Source: a virus (Duplodnaviria; Heunggongvirae; Uroviricota; Caudoviricetes). From it: 10,613 bases of DNA. The DNA lies in the IMG/VR virus record IMGVR_UViG_2778261300_000008; one strand, given 5' to 3'. Of this stretch, positions 1,493 through 9,246 are shown piece after piece. The first letter of the stretch is position 1. Each line of letters opens with the position of its first letter. A model generated the notes under the pieces. It saw only the letters and a program-made list of their open reading frames with translations, had not been told where the DNA came from and searched no databases. The position numbers and the translations under genes were made by a program.

Positions 1493-1960
1493 TCATCGAA
1501 GGCATTGCGTCCTGATGTATTCCTGAAGCGTTCTCAGTGCTGTTTGGTCGCGGATAATTCCGTCCCGGATACCGAGAACGTTTCGTCCAGCAACTGGAGA
1601 GAGTTCGACGGTGGCATCATTGCCCATGCCGGAGGCGCTGGAGGTTTCGGCTGAGGATGGCACAGGGCATTTTCCTTTGACGAACACCCGACCACCATTA
1701 TCAAGCTTGCGCCGAAGAGCATCATTTTCAGCTTTCGCATCAGCTAACTCCTTCGTGTATTTAGCATCGAGTGCATCAGCAGAACGCTGGCGCTGCTGCA
1801 TGTCAGTAATGGTGGCGGTCGCCTGCTTCAGCTCACTGACTTTTTTATCTCGCTGTTCTTTGTAGGCGATGGCGTTATCACGGTAATGATTGACCGCCCA
1901 CGACAGGCAGACGATGATGCAGATAACCAGAGCGGAGATAATCGCGGTTACTCTGCTCAT
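1493..1960 (-). CDS. Rz: i-spanin Rz
   Basis: The product [30 protein letters not shown]... closely matches lambda Rz as recalled. I place the start at the MSRV Met (1958-1960), which overlaps the endolysin stop, rather than at the first ATG of the ORF-track entry. Confidence 0.9.
1534..1740 (-). CDS. Rz1: o-spanin Rz1, lipoprotein embedded in the +1 frame of Rz
   Basis: Product [21 protein letters not shown]... has the lambda Rz1 N-terminus pattern, a lipobox (VVGC) and a proline-rich stretch, and is wholly embedded in Rz. Confidence 0.85.
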
Positions 1961-2454
1961 TGTTGCCCCCACAAACAGACTTCACGCTCAATCTCACGAC
2001 GAGTCATCAGGCCTTTCCATTGCTTACCGCCAGCGTATATCCAGCGACGTAGCTGGTCACATGCGCCTTTGATATCGCCCTGGTTTATTTTGCGAAGAAG
2101 CGTCGATGTTCTGAAATTGCCAGCACCCACGTTGTAGACGAACGAGTAAAGAGCGCCGCGCGTTGTTTCCGGTATATCGACTTTGATGTACGGGTTAATT
2201 TGTCTGGCAACCGTGGCAAGGTCTTTATTCAGGAGGGCTTTGCATTCTGCTTCGGTATACGTTTTACCGAGCATGATGTCTTTTCCGGTGTGTCCGTGAC
2301 ATACAGTCCATACGCCAACGATATCTTTGTATGGTATGTAGCTGACACCTTCCAGGCCATCGTCACCACTTGGGCCAGTGATTAACACTGATGCTATAGC
2401 AATTGCTCCGCCACCAATAGCAGCAGCAACTGCTTTTCGTAATGATGGAGGCAT
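1957..2454 (-). CDS. SAR endolysin (phage 21 R-type lysozyme)
   Basis: The 165-aa product begins [27 protein letters not shown], a glycine/alanine-rich signal-anchor-release N-terminus, and matches phage 21 R as recalled. The start overlaps the stop of the holin remnant (TAATG). Confidence 0.9.
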
Positions 2455-2516
2455 TATTCACCTCTCGCAGCCTTGCGCTTATCTTCTTTAATCTTGAAAT
2501 AAAGGTTTGTCAGGTA
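2454..2516 (-). pseudogene. Pinholin (S21-like) 3' remnant, last ~19 codons only
   Basis: The minus-strand frame ending at the TAA that overlaps the endolysin ATG reads [20 protein letters not shown], matching the recalled S21 C-terminus LTNLYFKIREDRRKAARGE. Upstream of the Tyr codon the frame diverges (PG...), and no transmembrane segments or start codon are present. Confidence 0.6.
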
Positions 2517-2749
2517 CCCTGGCGACGCGCCTTACGCGTTAACCAGCCTTCTGCTTCCAGCCGTGCGATAGCCGTTCTGACGGTACTCATCCCCGCGCCA
2601 ATCTGACGGGCAATGGTTTCAATTGATGGCCAGCACACACCTTCGTCATTACTGAAATCAGCCAGGCGGGCCATAATTGCCACGCTGGATAACTTCATGC
2701 CTGATGCAGCGCAACCATCCCATACATAGCCGGTTAATTTAGTGCTCAT
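2510..2749 (-). pseudogene. Replication-initiator (O-like) N-terminal fragment, truncated at a deletion junction
   Basis: The 79-aa ORF MSTKLTGYVWDGCAASGMKLSSVAIMARLADFSNDEGVCWPSIETIARQIGAGMSTVRTAIARLEAEGWL has a winged-helix fold pattern typical of lambdoid replication-protein N-termini. AGAGG lies upstream of the ATG, and the frame ends with a short unrelated tail (TRKARRQGT*) as it enters the holin remnant. Confidence 0.55.
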
Positions 2750-3897: not shown

Positions 3898-3922
3898 AAT
3901 ATGTACCTCCGGTGTACATATT
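3898..3922. promoter_or_regulatory. Operator palindrome (OR-like) overlapping the cro-side promoter -10 and leader
   Basis: Perfect 9-bp inverted repeat AATATGTAC (3898-3906) and GTACATATT (3914-3922) around a 7-bp spacer. It overlaps a minus-strand TAATAT -10 (3918-3923), with a TTGAAG -35 at 3940-3945. Confidence 0.5.
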
Positions 3923-3949
3923 ACATGATTGAAATGAACCTTCAAGATA

Positions 3950-3970
3950 CTTGTACCTTAACGGTACAAG
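3950..3970. promoter_or_regulatory. Operator palindrome (OR-like) overlapping the repressor promoter
   Basis: Perfect 8-bp inverted repeat CTTGTACC and GGTACAAG around a 5-bp spacer, sharing the TGTAC core with the other operators. A TTTAAT -10 at 3974-3979 places the transcription start near the cI ATG. Confidence 0.5.
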
Positions 3971-3985
3971 GGTTTTAATTTCGTT

Positions 3986-4660
3986 ATGAAAACAATCCAT
4001 GACATCCGGCGGTCTAACGCCAGAAAACTGAGAGATGGTGTTGGCGGGAATTCTTCCTTTGCCACTATGATTGATCGCGAGCCAACCCAGACCAGCAGGT
4101 TTATGGGAGATGGTGCTACTAAAAATATCGGTGACAGCATGGCACGACACATCGAAAAATGTTTCGACCTGCCTGTCGGATGGCTCGATCAAGAACACCA
4201 GACAACGAACATCACAAAAAAACCTGATGTTTCAATCACTAATAAACAAATCACATTAGTCCCTGTCATATCATGGGTACAGGCCGGAGCATGGAAAGAA
4301 GTTGGATATTCTGAGGTTGATTTGAGCACAGCAGAAACGTATCCCTGCCCTGTACCCTGTGGGGAAATGACTTATATCTTGCGGGTGATAGGTGATTCAA
4401 TGATTGATGAGTACCGCCCGGGAGACATGATTTTTGTCGATCCTGAAGTACCTGCCTGCCACGGTGACGACGTTATTGCATTGATGCACGATACAGGTGA
4501 AACCACCTTCAAAAGGTTGATAGAAGATGGGACACAGCGTTATCTCAAAGCGTTAAACCCAAACTGGCCTGAGCCTTACATTAAGATCAACGGTAATTGC
4601 TCTATAATTGGTACAGTGATTTTCTCAGGAAAACCAAGAAGATACAAAATCAAAGCCTAA
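3986..4660 (+). CDS. CI/C2-like prophage repressor with C-terminal S24 (LexA-type) peptidase domain
   Basis: The C-terminal half (VISWVQAGAWKEV...VIGDSMIDEYRPGDMIFVDPEV...TTFKRL...LNPNWPEPYIKINGNCSIIGTV) resembles the P22 C2 and lambda CI autocleavage domain, with an Ala-Gly site, a GDSM serine and an FKRL lysine. The N-terminal domain is diverged, there is no Shine-Dalgarno upstream, and an intrinsic terminator follows. Confidence 0.85.
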   Translation: MKTIHDIRRSNARKLRDGVGGNSSFATMIDREPTQTSRFMGDGATKNIGDSMARHIEKCFDLPVGWLDQEHQTTNITKKPDVSITNKQITLVPVISWVQAGAWKEVGYSEVDLSTAETYPCPVPCGEMTYILRVIGDSMIDEYRPGDMIFVDPEVPACHGDDVIALMHDTGETTFKRLIEDGTQRYLKALNPNWPEPYIKINGNCSIIGTVIFSGKPRRYKIKA

Positions 4661-4672
4661 TCAATGTTTATG

Positions 4673-4697
4673 AACCTGCTTCGGCAGGTTTTTTTAT
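4673..4697 (+). terminator. Intrinsic terminator of the repressor gene
   Basis: Stem AACCTGC, loop TTCG, stem GCAGGTT, then TTTTTAT, starting 13 bp after the cI stop. Confidence 0.7.
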
Positions 4698-4699
4698 AC

Positions 4700-4732
4700 T
4701 TGACAATGTACCTTTGAGATACATAATGTACC
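4700..4732 (+). promoter_or_regulatory. pL-like early-left promoter with overlapping operators (OL-like)
   Basis: TTGACA (4700-4705), a 16-bp spacer and CATAAT (4722-4727). The 11-bp perfect palindrome TACATAATGTA (4720-4730) overlaps the -10, and ATGTACC occurs at both 4706-4712 and 4726-4732, sharing the TGTAC core with the OR palindromes. Confidence 0.55.
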
Positions 4733-4853
4733 CAAGCGAAACAACGAACAGTCAGGACGCCCACGAAGTAGCCGCCTGGGGCATATGAAGTCCAGGATGA
4801 TTCGTTGAGTCATGTTGTGCCACTAGGCACTCATGTTAAAGCAGGTGTATGAA

Positions 4854-5129
4854 ATGAAAGTCCAGATTTTAAACAATAACTGTGAAGTCGTTTGGTCATA
4901 CGACATAGCCACCCCTGTAGATCAGAGCGGCGATAGCTGGACCAATGGGAAACATCAGATTATGGCTGGAGTTGTGTTCTCTTTACGCCGTGCTTTGGAA
5001 CAGGCTGAAGTATTTCCATCAGACCCTGAATGGAAATGGCCTTTTTCTATTTGTCCAAATTCGGAGAGCACATTTCAGAAAATTGGTCAGAAAGTCGCAC
5101 TCGAAGAGCATCAGCCAACTGTTTCCTGA
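4854..5129 (+). CDS. Hypothetical protein, first ORF downstream of pL (not N-like)
   Basis: AGGTG lies 6 nt upstream of the ATG at 4854 (the ORF track starts at 4833). The product is not arginine-rich and is unrecognised. Its 3' end overlaps the convergent ORF 5047..5292 by 83 nt, so one of the two may be spurious. Confidence 0.35.
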   Translation: MKVQILNNNCEVVWSYDIATPVDQSGDSWTNGKHQIMAGVVFSLRRALEQAEVFPSDPEWKWPFSICPNSESTFQKIGQKVALEEHQPTVS

Positions 5130-5292
5130 TTTTTTCAGGTAACTCGTCGGCATCGCAGAAACAACAACGCTCGATCATGTTGAAAGCCGATTCGTAGAAC
5201 TGTTTCTGCTGAGTGTCGCTGAGACAGGAAAAGAGCGACGTTACGATGATTTTATTAATTGCATTATCAAGTTCTTTTTCATCAAAAGTCAT
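5047..5292 (-). CDS. Hypothetical small Cys-containing protein, antisense to the pL transcript
   Basis: 81-aa ORF with AAGGA 8 nt upstream of the ATG. The composition is protein-like (helical, five Cys including a CCFC motif), the local DNA is AT-rich, and I do not recognise the product. Confidence 0.4.
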   Translation of the reverse strand: MTFDEKELDNAINKIIVTSLFSCLSDTQQKQFYESAFNMIERCCFCDADELPEKIRKQLADALRVRLSDQFSEMCSPNLDK

Positions 5293-5545
5293 TTGATTTT
5301 CCTTTTATGTATACGGGCTTAAAAGGATACCACCGAGCCTGAAGTGGTGAAAAGACAGGCACATAACAGCTAAGTATTTTCAACCAGAGAGAATCCTTAG
5401 CGTTGTGGTGAATGCGGCTCAGCGCACGCGGGTTAAGGTTGAAGCTGACAGTCGACCTTCTGTGAATACCCACCCGCCTGGTGTGCAACCTTCGCCAGGC
5501 ACCGGGAGGCACCCGGCACCACAACTTTATGCTGTGAGTAGTCCT

Positions 5546-5592
5546 GGCGGTACCAGCTTGTACCATTGCTTCCGGCTGGTACCGTCCTTTTT
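5546..5592 (+). terminator. Strong intrinsic terminator in the pL-operon path
   Basis: 12-bp stem GGCGGTACCAGC (5546-5557) pairs with GCTGGTACCGTC (5575-5586), with one G-U pair, around a 17-nt loop, followed by CTTTTTA. The loop contains CTTGTACC, identical to an OR operator half-site. Confidence 0.6.
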
Positions 5593-5681
5593 ACAAAACA
5601 GAGAAGAGCATCACCGGACGACGGGCTCATAACCCAATCCATCCGGGCGGCTGCCACCGCAGGTGTTCTTCTCTGTTTTGT
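5593..5681. repeat. 15-bp perfect inverted repeat flanking a 59-bp GC-rich spacer
   Basis: ACAAAACAGAGAAGA (5593-5607) and TCTTCTCTGTTTTGT (5667-5681); the pairing extends imperfectly to about 20 bp with wobbles. It lies directly after the terminator and about 50 bp before the yfdP-like start. Confidence 0.6.
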
Positions 5682-5729
5682 GGAGAAACTAACCGACCTT
5701 ACAGGGTCGATATGATGAGGAGCAGCAAA

Positions 5730-6092
5730 ATGGCTAGCGAACGCAGTACTGATGTGCAGGCATTTATCGGGGAGCTGGACGGCGGCGTATTTGAAACCAA
5801 AATCGGCGCAGTTCTCAGTGAAGTCGCTTCCGGTGTGATGAACACGAAAACCAAAGGTAAGGTCTCACTCAACCTGGAAATCGAACCATTTGATGAGAAC
5901 CGTGTGAAAATCAAACACAAACTCTCATATGTTCGCCCGACTAACCGCGGGAAAATTTCCGAAGAAGACACCACCGAAACGCCGATGTATGTCAATCGCG
6001 GTGGTCGCCTGACTATTCTGCAGGAAGACCAGGGACAATTACTGACTCTTGCCGGTGAACCTGACGGAAAACTCCGCGCAGCAGGTCATTAA
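5730..6092 (+). CDS. YfdP-like prophage protein of unknown function
   Basis: GAGGAG lies 8 nt upstream of the ATG at 5730 and falls inside the ORF-track N-terminal extension, so 5730 is the likelier start. The resulting 120-aa product MASERSTDVQAFIGELDGG... matches my recollection of KplE1/CPS-53 YfdP in size and sequence. Confidence 0.65.
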   Translation: MASERSTDVQAFIGELDGGVFETKIGAVLSEVASGVMNTKTKGKVSLNLEIEPFDENRVKIKHKLSYVRPTNRGKISEEDTTETPMYVNRGGRLTILQEDQGQLLTLAGEPDGKLRAAGH

Positions 6093-9170: not shown

Positions 9171-9246
9171 GGTGCCGATAATAGGAGTCGAACCTACGAC
9201 CTTCGCATTACGAATGCGCTGCTCTACCAACTGAGCTATATCGGCC
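9171..9246 (-). tRNA. thrW: tRNA-Thr (anticodon CGU)
   Basis: The minus strand reads GCCGATATAGCTCAGTTGGTAGAGCAGCGCATTCGTAATGCGAAGGTCGTAGGTTCGACTCCTATTATCGGCACCA, a 76-nt cloverleaf with a TTCGACT T-loop, anticodon CGT and encoded CCA. P22 Int-type elements are known to target thrW. Confidence 0.92.

What the first reader, a model, noticed from the sequence alone, without database searches (positions are those of the whole stretch)
4833..5292. Unrecognised convergent, overlapping small-gene pair in the position normally held by N
The first ORF after the pL-like promoter is not an arginine-rich N-like antiterminator, although a strong terminator lies downstream in the same operon. An 81-aa Cys-containing ORF runs antisense to it and overlaps its 3' end by 83 nt. 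A gene transcribed against the repressed early operon, in the AT-rich moron position beside cI where lambda carries rexAB and sieB, is a plausible lysogen-expressed exclusion or toxin-antitoxin-like module. I cannot assign either product to a known family, and one ORF may be spurious.
Basis: inference. Interest (0 to 1): 0.6.

Follow-up and report, generated by a model that had tools for sequence, protein, structure and literature searches.

The report
Conserved convergent overlapping prophage gene pair
Just downstream of the repressor gene of this defective SfV-like prophage sit two small genes that face each other and overlap at their ends; both are real, conserved protein genes that travel together between prophages of enteric bacteria, but what they do is still unknown.

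Summary
ORF A (+ strand, 4833/4854-5129) and ORF B (- strand, 5047-5292) overlap by 83 nt, directly downstream of an 11/12-match pL promoter.

Neither ORF is spurious. Eight divergent lineages from Escherichia, Klebsiella, Salmonella, Yersinia and metagenomes keep both ORFs in the same convergent layout. Substitutions follow frame A in the A-only part and frame B in the B-only part (pN 0.18-0.36, pS 0.64-0.93). Antisense control frames give dN/dS of about 1 or more.

A's conserved start is 4854, giving 91 aa, and its stop is not conserved. A is never found without B. B also occurs alone, always antisense to a phage operon. B has a conserved promoter-like element with an extended -10.

Both proteins lack any Pfam, NCBIfam, PADLOC or PDB relative. 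AF2 models are low-confidence.

A is not an N substitute. The slot is a variable cassette, and E. coli K-12 e14 carries the unrelated convergent pair ymfJ/ymfI between identical flanks.

Best reading, by inference: A is an induction-expressed early gene and B a lysogen-expressed antisense moron. They are functionally coupled and mutually exclusive in expression. The exclusion and toxin-antitoxin ideas remain untested.

The parts
3986..4660 (+). cI-type (LexA/S24 family) repressor gene, equivalent to ymfK/cohE of e14 and cI of SfV
   Evidence: ORF list; annotated as ymfK LexA family protein or cI in matching records
4672..4699 (+). Intrinsic terminator after the repressor gene
   Evidence: 8-bp stem, GC-rich, followed by a T run; annotated as a terminator in SfV
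4700..4743 (+). pL promoter (TTGACA-16-CATAAT, 4700-4727) with two AATGTACC operator-like repeats (4705-4723 and 4725-4743)
   Evidence: 11/12 consensus match; direct repeat D1; similar ATGTACC..GGTACAT inverted repeats in the cro-cI intergenic region 3900-3970. Identical sequence in K-12 e14
4728..4853 (+). pL leader, shared with e14 and, in part, with L003. It contains the conserved motif CAGGACGCCCACGAAGTAGCC and a stem-loop that covaries between the window and e14
   Evidence: Read directly. The fold is only weakly better than shuffles, z=-1.6. Function not tested
4854..5129 (+). Gene A (91 aa from the conserved ATG; an alternative upstream ATG at 4833 gives the 98 aa of SfV orf33). Early gene in the pL direction. 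phrog_3195, unknown function
   Evidence: Purifying selection in frame A over 4854-5045: pN 0.19-0.34 against pS 0.64-0.93. Homologues in L003, L171, L172, L179, L180, L181 and L209. The stop is not conserved, giving 91-122 aa
5047..5129 (.). 3'-3' overlap of genes A and B. It is 83 nt here and 110-173 nt in four measured homologous loci
   Evidence: Codon-position signal is mixed here and the switch from the A pattern to the B pattern lies at about 5050-5065
5047..5292 (-). Gene B (81 aa). Acidic, soluble, predicted three-helix protein. phrog_3311, unknown function. Antisense to the pL operon
   Evidence: Purifying selection in frame B over 5130-5292: pN 0.18-0.36 against pS 0.67-0.93. Family of 72-84 aa proteins in Escherichia, Klebsiella, Salmonella, Yersinia and Cronobacter. 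pI 4.3-5.2 and no transmembrane segment. AF2 gives 3 helices at pLDDT 58
5300..5304 (-). Shine-Dalgarno of gene B (AAGGA on the - strand, 7 nt before the ATG)
   Evidence: Read directly. AAGGAAA or GAAGGAAA is kept in most homologous loci
5324..5351 (-). Candidate sigma-70 promoter of gene B on the - strand: -35 TTCACC (5351-5346), 16-nt spacer, extended -10 TGgTATCCT (5332-5324). The spacer holds the inverted repeat ACCAC-N10-GTGGT
   Evidence: My own scan of 12 upstream regions. The same geometry, with the -10 ending 31-35 nt before the ATG, is found upstream of B in L003, L171, L174, L179 and L180, with a weaker match in L173, but not as a top match in L172 or L181. It is also found upstream of e14 ymfI, SfII_36 and the L007 chimera. 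At 8/12 it is below the threshold of the consensus tool, which instead flags the inverted repeat as terminator-like on the - strand
5323..5362 (.). 40-nt block that is 100% identical between the window and L003, although the flanking coding DNA is only about 70% identical
   Evidence: Pairwise alignment. Also present in e14, SfII and L007
5372..5594 (+). STnc100-like structured RNA ending in an intrinsic terminator (stem 5548-5557/5575-5584, then a U run). It is a neighbour of the pair, not part of it
   Evidence: Rfam RF02076 at 44.7 bits, gathering score 47, E=3e-7. Inverted repeat I4. Fold of 5293-5720 has z=-7.7

Best explanation
The pair is a mobile two-gene accessory module in the repressor-proximal part of the leftward early operon of lambdoid prophages.

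Gene A (91 aa) is the first gene transcribed from the repressor-controlled pL. It would therefore be made only on induction or infection.

Gene B (81 aa) is a soluble, acidic, helical protein. It is transcribed in the opposite direction from its own promoter with an extended -10, and so is most likely made in the lysogen while pL is shut.

Because the two genes converge and overlap at their 3' ends, strong pL transcription and B transcription should interfere with each other, both by polymerase collision and through complementary 3' RNA. Expression would then be reciprocal, as in an excludon: B on and A off in the lysogen, A on and B off after induction.

A is never found without B, while B can stand alone. 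I therefore read the two products as functionally coupled. B would be the lysogen-phase effector and A an induction-phase partner that counteracts or needs it.

My graded confidence is as follows:
- Both are genuine, co-inherited protein genes: about 0.95 (shown).
- A is an early gene and B a lysogen-expressed antisense gene, with reciprocal expression: about 0.55 (inferred).
- The products antagonise each other, as exclusion factor plus self-antidote or as toxic early protein plus antidote: about 0.25 (speculative).
For: Shown:
- Both frames are under purifying selection, each only in its own segment. Antisense control frames give dN/dS of about 1 or more.
- The pair is kept in the same layout in eight divergent lineages. 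The distance from the A ATG to the B ATG is 439 nt in six, 442 nt in L181 and 430 nt in L209.
- All 28 complete metagenome loci holding an A homologue also hold B convergently.
- A and B diverge in step, which fits co-inheritance. Identity to the window copy runs from 58% down to 41% for A and from 61% down to 33% for B.
- B occurs without A in four loci. In each it is antisense, between the Q antiterminator gene and the lysis genes.
- pL and its operator-like repeats are present.
- The promoter-like element and Shine-Dalgarno are conserved upstream of B in most of the divergent loci.

By analogy:
- K-12 e14 has the identical repressor, pL and leader. Its slot gene ymfJ is induced late in the SOS response and its protein was detected (PMC11002266).
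- ymfI-ymfJ is listed as a convergent excludon from RNA-seq coverage (PMC12288877).
Against: - I found no transcript, transcription-start or ribosome-profiling data for this pair.
- The B promoter matches only 8/12 of the consensus and was not called by the scanning tool. The same inverted repeat can be read as a weak terminator on the - strand.
- Neither protein has a detectable homologue of known function. AF2 models are low-confidence (pLDDT 58 and 52) and Foldseek found nothing.
- Coupling of the two products rests on co-occurrence alone.
- Within the overlap neither frame shows clean purifying selection, and A's stop is not conserved. The overlap may therefore be tolerated rather than selected.
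Confidence: 0.55

Rival explanations
1. Two unrelated accessory genes simply sit next to each other and are inherited together because they are tightly packed. The 3' overlap has no regulatory meaning and the proteins do not interact.
For: The slot collects many unrelated antisense genes. Selection in the overlap is weak or mixed, and A's stop drifts between 91 and 122 aa. B functions without A in four loci.
Against: A is never seen without B across eight divergent lineages and 28 metagenome loci. The pair also appears against different neighbouring genes: yfdP-type, Rac/DUF1482-type, and next to holin genes. That is hard to reconcile with the heavy mosaicism seen at this slot.
Confidence: 0.2
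2. This is a toxin-antidote module. A is a toxic early protein of the kil type, made from pL. B is a lysogen-expressed antidote that buffers leaky A expression, and its antisense transcript also damps A mRNA.
For: A depends on B but B does not depend on A, which is the asymmetry expected of a toxin and its antidote. The orientation puts B expression in the lysogen and A under the repressor.
Against: There is no similarity to any toxin or antitoxin family. A type II operon architecture is absent. A is intact in most copies within defective prophages, though that sample was biased towards intact copies. No toxicity data exist.
Confidence: 0.13
3. The main product of the B locus is RNA or transcription itself. 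A constitutive promoter firing against pL, or against pR' in the B-only loci, acts as a brake on leaky early or late transcription in the lysogen. On this view the B protein is secondary.
For: B always faces a major regulated phage promoter, either pL or the Q-dependent late operon. The same promoter block drives unrelated antisense genes in e14 and SfII.
Against: The B protein sequence is strongly conserved, with pN far below pS and 9 invariant and 6 nearly invariant residues in 14 sequences. The protein itself is therefore under selection.
Confidence: 0.07
4. Gene A is a non-canonical substitute for the N antiterminator, needed to read through the terminator at 5548-5592.
For: A is the first gene after pL, and a terminator lies downstream before yfdP through int.
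Against: A has no arginine-rich motif. Phages with the same repressor, pL, leader and downstream terminator lack A altogether: e14, SfII, SfIV, Kati and PhiR29. In L003 and L180 A is the second gene after the repressor gene.
Confidence: 0.03
5. One of the two ORFs is a chance reading frame on the antisense strand of the other.
For: PGAP annotates only A. Antisense ORFs are common opposite real genes.
Against: Each frame has its own codon-position signature and low pN/pS in its own segment. B has homologues in five genera, some of them without A.
Confidence: 0.02

Closest known systems
ymfJ/ymfI of the E. coli K-12 cryptic prophage e14
   Same: The slot and flanks are the same: identical ymfK-type repressor, terminator, pL and leader upstream, and the same conserved block and STnc100-like RNA downstream (annotated ymfH in K-12). 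The layout also matches, with a small gene in the pL direction overlapped at its 3' end (63 nt) by an antisense gene that starts just after the conserved promoter block. ymfJ is induced late in the SOS response (PMC11002266), and ymfI-ymfJ is listed as a convergent excludon (PMC12288877).
   Different: There is no sequence similarity. BLASTP of B against YmfI gives E=5.8, and A against YmfJ gives no alignment. The function of ymfI/ymfJ is also unknown.
Prophage morons and lysogenic-conversion genes of lambdoid phages (lambda bor and lom; rexAB and sieB beside cI). Comparison drawn from established knowledge
   Same: It is an accessory gene with its own promoter, inserted between conserved phage modules, lying beside the repressor gene or downstream of Q. 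B is oriented against the phage operon, as bor is.
   Different: There is no homology. B is a soluble acidic protein with no transmembrane segment. rexAB are co-directional with cI. The obligatory convergent partner gene A has no counterpart.
Excludons (overlapping convergent or divergent transcription units with mutually exclusive expression)
   Same: Convergent genes with overlapping 3' ends, one under a strong regulated promoter.
   Different: Only the gene-level overlap is shown here. Overlapping transcripts, RNase III dependence and mutual exclusion are untested.
Toxin-antitoxin systems (type I antisense-RNA type, type II two-protein type)
   Same: It is a two-component module in a mobile element. 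One partner (A) never occurs without the other (B). The 3' ends are complementary at the antisense level.
   Different: Both partners are conserved proteins on opposite strands. This is neither a type II operon nor a type I pair of toxin and non-coding antitoxin. No family match was found.
Lambda N, P22 gp24 and HK022 Nun/put antitermination at pL
   Same: The first position after pL, with a terminator further downstream.
   Different: A has no arginine-rich motif. The slot content varies among phages sharing the same pL. The downstream structured RNA does not resemble HK022 putL, and STnc100 does not hit HK022.

Membership tests
Lambda N-type antiterminator | N-terminal arginine-rich motif that binds boxB RNA | tested here: not met
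   A homologues have 1-3 Arg/Lys in their first 25 residues. The window copy of A has pI 4.95.
Lambda N-type antiterminator | Essential, fixed first gene of the pL operon in phages sharing the same pL and nut region | tested here: not met
   e14, SfII, SfIV, Kati and PhiR29 share the flanks but carry other genes or none.
Type II toxin-antitoxin | Two co-directional, co-transcribed genes | tested here: not met
   The genes are convergent on opposite strands.
Type II toxin-antitoxin | Homology of either partner to a known toxin or antitoxin fold | tested here: not met
   Pfam, NCBIfam, PADLOC and PDB profile searches all found nothing.
Type II toxin-antitoxin | Toxicity of one partner that is neutralised by the other | not testable with these tools
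   Needs expression experiments.
Type I toxin-antitoxin | Small hydrophobic toxin peptide plus a non-coding antisense RNA | tested here: not met
   Neither protein has a transmembrane segment (maximum KD19 of 1.03 or less). The antisense partner is a conserved protein gene.
Known anti-phage defence systems (PADLOC-DB v2) | Match to a defence-protein model | tested here: not met
   The only hit was a chance-level SspC match at E=0.035. The other slot occupants also gave nothing.
Membrane superinfection-exclusion proteins (SieA/SieB, Rex, HK97 gp15 type) | Transmembrane segment or signal peptide | tested here: not met
   Maximum 19-residue Kyte-Doolittle mean is 0.35-0.95 for the B family and 0.55-1.03 for A.
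Moron (autonomous accessory gene in a prophage) | Own promoter, independent of the flanking phage operon | tested here: inconclusive
   A conserved TT(C/A)ACC-16-TGnTATCCT-like element lies 31-35 nt before the ATG in most loci. It matches only 8/12 and was not called by the consensus tool. No transcript data.
Moron (autonomous accessory gene in a prophage) | Presence or absence between otherwise conserved flanks, with deviant base composition | tested here: met
   2875 of 5426 E. coli genomes match some part of the 1151-nt query spanning the flanks and the pair, but only 425 carry the pair. Phages share the flanks with other inserts. GC is 0.38-0.46, against 0.55 in the adjacent RNA.
Excludon | Convergent neighbouring genes whose transcripts overlap | tested here: inconclusive
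   The coding regions overlap by 83-173 nt, and the scan of 4550-5800 placed no terminator between the two genes. Transcript ends are unknown.
Excludon | Mutually exclusive expression | not testable with these tools
   Needs strand-specific RNA-seq of the lysogen compared with induced cells.
STnc100 / PasD sRNA family (the neighbouring element at 5372-5594, not the pair) | Rfam RF02076 covariance-model score at or above the gathering threshold | tested here: inconclusive
   44.7 bits against a gathering score of 47. E=3e-7, full-length match to model positions 1-206.

The most novel reading that the evidence does not exclude
The pair is a previously undescribed kind of prophage switch module. 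B would be a small cytoplasmic lysogen-phase effector, for example an exclusion or anti-phage factor, or an inhibitor of a host or phage protein. A would be its dedicated induction-phase antagonist. The convergent 3' overlap would hard-wire their mutually exclusive expression, so that the prophage disarms its own lysogen-phase factor the moment pL fires. The neighbouring examples (e14 ymfJ/ymfI, Kati CDS0003/0004, and the YmfJ-like pair in the Yersinia locus) would then be other members of a general class of sense/antisense pair modules at this hot spot.
Probability: 0.2. Interest if true: 0.7.

Novelty: new variant of a known kind. Interest (0 to 1): 0.45.

Why it matters
The pair is present in about 8% of complete E. 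coli genomes (425 of 5426), yet one of its two genes is systematically left out of RefSeq annotation because it overlaps the other. It is a clean, evolution-backed example of two protein genes overlapping tail to tail.

It also marks a hot spot next to the prophage repressor gene where unrelated antisense genes are swapped in behind one shared promoter block. If the two products prove to be an effector and its antagonist, the module would be a compact model of how a prophage keeps a lysogen-phase function from interfering with its own induction. It would also give a handle on the unexplained K-12 genes ymfI and ymfJ.

If the two genes are merely neighbours, the finding is an annotation correction plus two new small protein families.

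Tried and rejected
- Family and structure assignment failed. Pfam, PHROGs, NCBIfam and PADLOC searches on single sequences, and on every member of the two family alignments, gave only PHROG families of unknown function. PDB sequence and profile searches found nothing.
- AF2 models were poor. B from a single sequence reached pLDDT 58, and A from a 5-sequence alignment reached pLDDT 52. Foldseek against BFVD gave no hit with E below 1. I did not run further fold searches because the models are too weak to trust.
- I tested whether the structured RNA with its terminator downstream is an HK022 put-like antiterminator RNA. It is not supported. STnc100 does not hit the HK022 pL region, and the putL sequence is unrelated by eye.
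- Homology of A and B to the e14 pair YmfJ/YmfI is rejected.
- The representative-genome collection gave nothing in two scans. The family is confined to accessory prophages absent from the species representatives.
- Among 50,697 phage records, only SfV, vB_EcoM-720R4 and SKA5 carry B.
- Polymorphism among near-identical E. coli copies was too sparse and too biased towards intact copies to be informative.
- I could not read the two SfV papers: Allison et al. 2002, and Roberts et al. 2007 on termination-mediated immunity. A citing paper shows that the latter concerns immunity mediated by a non-coding RNA. The SfV record labels orf37, on the pR side, as the 'immunity region', so that work probably does not concern this pair. 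This is unverified.
- The 'putative rho-independent terminator' in the SfV record maps to window 5280-5312. It overlaps B's start codon and Shine-Dalgarno and shows only a weak AT hairpin. I do not accept it as a terminator.

Full report
**Context**

The window is a defective SfV-like lambdoid prophage inserted at tRNA-Thr (9173-9245) next to proA. From right to left on the map it carries:
- a P22-type integrase;
- yfdR, yfdQ and yfdP;
- a highly structured RNA region;
- the pair under study;
- a LexA/S24-type repressor gene (3986-4660, equivalent to ymfK of e14 and cI of SfV);
- a divergent cro/ymfL side.

The 1151 nt around the finding are 98.3% identical to phage SfV. In SfV the + strand ORF is orf33, 'unknown'. 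The same stretch is about 99% identical to many E. coli chromosomes.

**Checking the observation**

ORF A (+, 4833-5129) and ORF B (-, 5047-5292) exist and overlap by 83 nt. Directly upstream lie the repressor gene's terminator (4672-4691) and a near-consensus promoter, TTGACA-16-CATAAT, at 4700-4727. The promoter is bracketed by two AATGTACC repeats. These resemble the ATGTACC...GGTACAT inverted repeats of the cro-cI intergenic region. Calling it a repressor-controlled pL is therefore reasonable.

The region has GC 0.38-0.46 and so is only mildly AT-rich.

**Are both ORFs genes?**

Word-indexed protein searches found only near-identical E. coli sequences, plus one divergent A homologue, P0040. 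The contig encoding P0040 (L003, a different lambdoid prophage with another repressor and a lambda-type integrase) also carries a B homologue on the opposite strand, in the same layout.

Window 4854-5292 aligns to L003 4001-4439 without a single gap, at about 68-70% identity. The substitutions behave as follows:
- In the A-only part they fall 18/7/37 on A codon positions 1/2/3.
- In the B-only part they fall 15/4/30 on B positions 1/2/3.
- The switch between the two patterns lies at B's stop codon (chi-square p=1.4e-5 and 3e-5).

An exhaustive HMMER search with B and a profile search then revealed a family of 72-84 aa proteins in Klebsiella, Salmonella, Yersinia, Cronobacter and metagenomes. 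Looking up their contigs showed A homologues opposite B in L171 (Yersinia), L172, L179 (Salmonella), L180 (Klebsiella) and L181. A further one turned up in L209.

The distance from the A ATG to the B ATG is exactly 439 nt in six lineages, 442 nt in L181 and 430 nt in L209.

Nei-Gojobori estimates over four lineages give:
- frame A in the A-only segment: pN 0.19-0.34 against pS 0.64-0.93;
- frame B in the B-only segment: pN 0.18-0.36 against pS 0.67-0.93;
- the antisense frame read over the same segments: dN/dS of about 1 to 7.

Both are therefore protein-coding genes under purifying selection. The suggestion that one may be spurious is refuted.

Inside the overlap the signal is mixed. A's stop codon drifts, giving 91, 98, 107 or 122 aa. 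The overlap is thus always present but its extent is not fixed.

A's conserved start is the ATG at 4854 (MKVQIL..., preceded by AGGTG). This is also the PGAP start. The 4833 start is not conserved.

**Linkage**

Every locus with an A homologue also has B in the convergent arrangement. This holds for the eight divergent lineages and for all 28 complete metagenome loci.

B occurs without A in a more distant clade (L173, L174, L211, L212). There it lies between the Q antiterminator gene and the lysis genes, again antisense to the phage operon.

A and B diverge in parallel across lineages, as expected if they are inherited as a unit. The unit appears against different backgrounds:
- yfdP/yfdQ-type early regions (window, L171, L179);
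- Rac/DUF1482-type early regions (L003, L180);
- next to holin genes (L172, L181).

In six of the seven lineages with enough flanking sequence, A is the first or second gene after a repressor gene.

**What the proteins look like**

Neither protein matches Pfam, NCBIfam, PADLOC or any PDB sequence. PHROGs has both (phrog_3195 and phrog_3311), each with unknown function.

B is consistently acidic (pI 4.3-5.2), has no hydrophobic segment, and is predicted as three helices. Its Cys cluster (RCCFC) is not conserved.

A has a predicted beta-hairpin followed by helices, conserved Trp residues and no arginine-rich N-terminus.

Both AF2 models are low-confidence, and Foldseek found nothing.

**The slot and B's promoter**

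Many phages and about half of complete E. coli genomes share the flanks but not the insert. Only 425 of 5426 genomes carry the pair.

K-12 e14 has the identical repressor, terminator, pL and leader upstream, and the same downstream sequences. Between them it carries ymfJ (pL direction) and ymfI (antisense), which overlap by 63 nt and are unrelated in sequence to A and B.

Other occupants of the slot are:
- SfII and SfIV, which carry other antisense genes;
- PhiR29_1, with a 242-aa antisense gene;
- Kati, with another convergent overlapping pair;
- the Yersinia locus, which carries both an A/B pair and a YmfJ-like gene with its own convergent partner.

None of these occupants matches Pfam or PADLOC.

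Just upstream of B, of ymfI, of SfII_36 and of a chimeric B gene (L007) lies a 40-nt block, 5323-5362. It is 100% identical even between loci whose coding DNA is about 70% identical. On the - strand it reads TTCACC-16 nt-TGgTATCCT, a -35 element plus an extended -10, ending 31 nt before B's ATG. Equivalent elements at the same distance occur upstream of most of the more distant B genes, but not as top matches in L172 or L181.

I take this as B's promoter, but the evidence is consensus only. It scores 8/12 and was not called by the scanning tool. That tool instead flags the spacer's inverted repeat (ACCAC-N10-GTGGT) as terminator-like.

**Mechanism (inference)**

pL is shut in the lysogen. By analogy with e14, where ymfJ behind the same repressor and pL is induced late in the SOS response and its protein is detected (PMC11002266), A should be an induction-phase protein.

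B is driven from its own promoter against pL and should be a lysogen-phase protein. The scan of 4550-5800 placed no terminator between the two genes. Their transcripts should therefore overlap and interfere, as proposed for ymfI-ymfJ by ExcludonFinder (PMC12288877).

A needs B but B does not need A. This asymmetry suggests that A acts on or through B. The function itself is not determined. It could be an exclusion factor with a self-antidote, a toxic early protein with an antidote, or something else.

**Comparison with N**

A is not an N analogue. It lacks an arginine-rich motif, and it is dispensable in phages with the same pL, leader and downstream terminator.

The 'strong terminator' belongs to an STnc100-like structured RNA at 5372-5594 (44.7 bits against a gathering score of 47). 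STnc100 is a prophage sRNA family that is transcribed in EHEC lysogens (PMC5331693) and is related to PasD (bioRxiv 10.64898/2026.05.13.724894). It does not resemble HK022 putL. How pL transcription passes this terminator is unknown.

**Verdict**

This is a real, conserved, co-inherited pair of convergent overlapping genes encoding two uncharacterised small protein families. It sits at a prophage hot spot for antisense accessory genes. It is a new variant of known themes (moron, excludon), with an analogous but non-homologous pair in K-12. Interest is moderate. It would rise considerably if the two products prove to be an effector and its antagonist.

Noticed in passing
window 5372-5594 (+), extending to 5681: An STnc100 (RF02076)-like structured RNA, just under the Rfam gathering score (44.7 against 47 bits), ending in an intrinsic terminator. 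A second hairpin of about 90 nt follows (arms 5593-5617 and 5657-5681) just before yfdP. The stretch 5293-5720 folds with z=-7.7. K-12 annotates the homologous stretch as the protein gene ymfH, and PGAP calls a frameshifted pseudogene on it. Both are probably mis-annotations of an RNA element.
   Followed up: partly
window 5323-5362: A 40-nt block that is 100% identical between loci whose neighbouring coding DNA is only about 70% identical. It holds the candidate B promoter and the inverted repeat ACCAC-N10-GTGGT. Conservation is stronger than a promoter alone would need, so it may also serve the rightward RNA or be a protein-binding site.
   Followed up: partly
window 4728-4853: The pL leader carries a conserved motif (CAGGACGCCCACGAAGTAGCC) followed by a stem-loop that covaries between the window (CCTGG..CCAGG) and e14 (CCCGGT..ACCGGG), and then GATGATTCGTT. 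It might be a nut-like or other regulatory RNA site. The fold is only weakly better than shuffles (z=-1.6).
   Followed up: no
slot between the pL leader and the STnc100-like RNA; loci L010, L171, L175-L178: This slot is a hot spot for unrelated antisense genes behind one shared promoter block: e14 ymfI/ymfJ, SfII_36, SfIV_35/36, a 242-aa gene in PhiR29_1, and Kati CDS0003/0004. Several of these are again convergent overlapping pairs. None matches Pfam or PADLOC.
   Followed up: partly
L007 1028-1336 (protein P0023); L008 4001-4324 (protein P0011): Chimeric B genes. In L007 the first 33 residues of B, with its promoter and Shine-Dalgarno, are fused to an unrelated C-terminal part. In L008 the first 67 residues are fused to other sequence in a deleted prophage. 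This suggests recombination within or next to B.
   Followed up: no
window 1493-2749: The prophage is defective. A remnant of a replication (O-like) gene at 2510-2749 lies directly next to the lysozyme and Rz/Rz1-type lysis genes (1493-2454), so most of the late and replication regions are deleted.
   Followed up: no
window 5047-5292 (-), in RefSeq E. coli genomes: Gene B is not annotated by PGAP in the matching complete genomes. Only one hypothetical protein, gene A, is listed under the pair, although B is the better conserved of the two across genera.
   Followed up: yes
L001 668-1504 (SfV orf37, pR side): The SfV record labels orf37 as 'immunity region'. Roberts, Allison and Verma 2007 (J Gen Virol 88:3187) is cited elsewhere as showing superinfection immunity mediated by a non-coding RNA in SfV. 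I could not read that paper. Whether that system relates to the STnc100-like RNA or to this pair is unknown.
   Followed up: partly
L001 3681-3713, equivalent to window 5280-5312: The 'putative rho-independent terminator' annotated in the SfV record coincides with the start codon and ribosome-binding site of gene B. It shows only a weak AT-rich hairpin and is probably not a terminator.
   Followed up: yes
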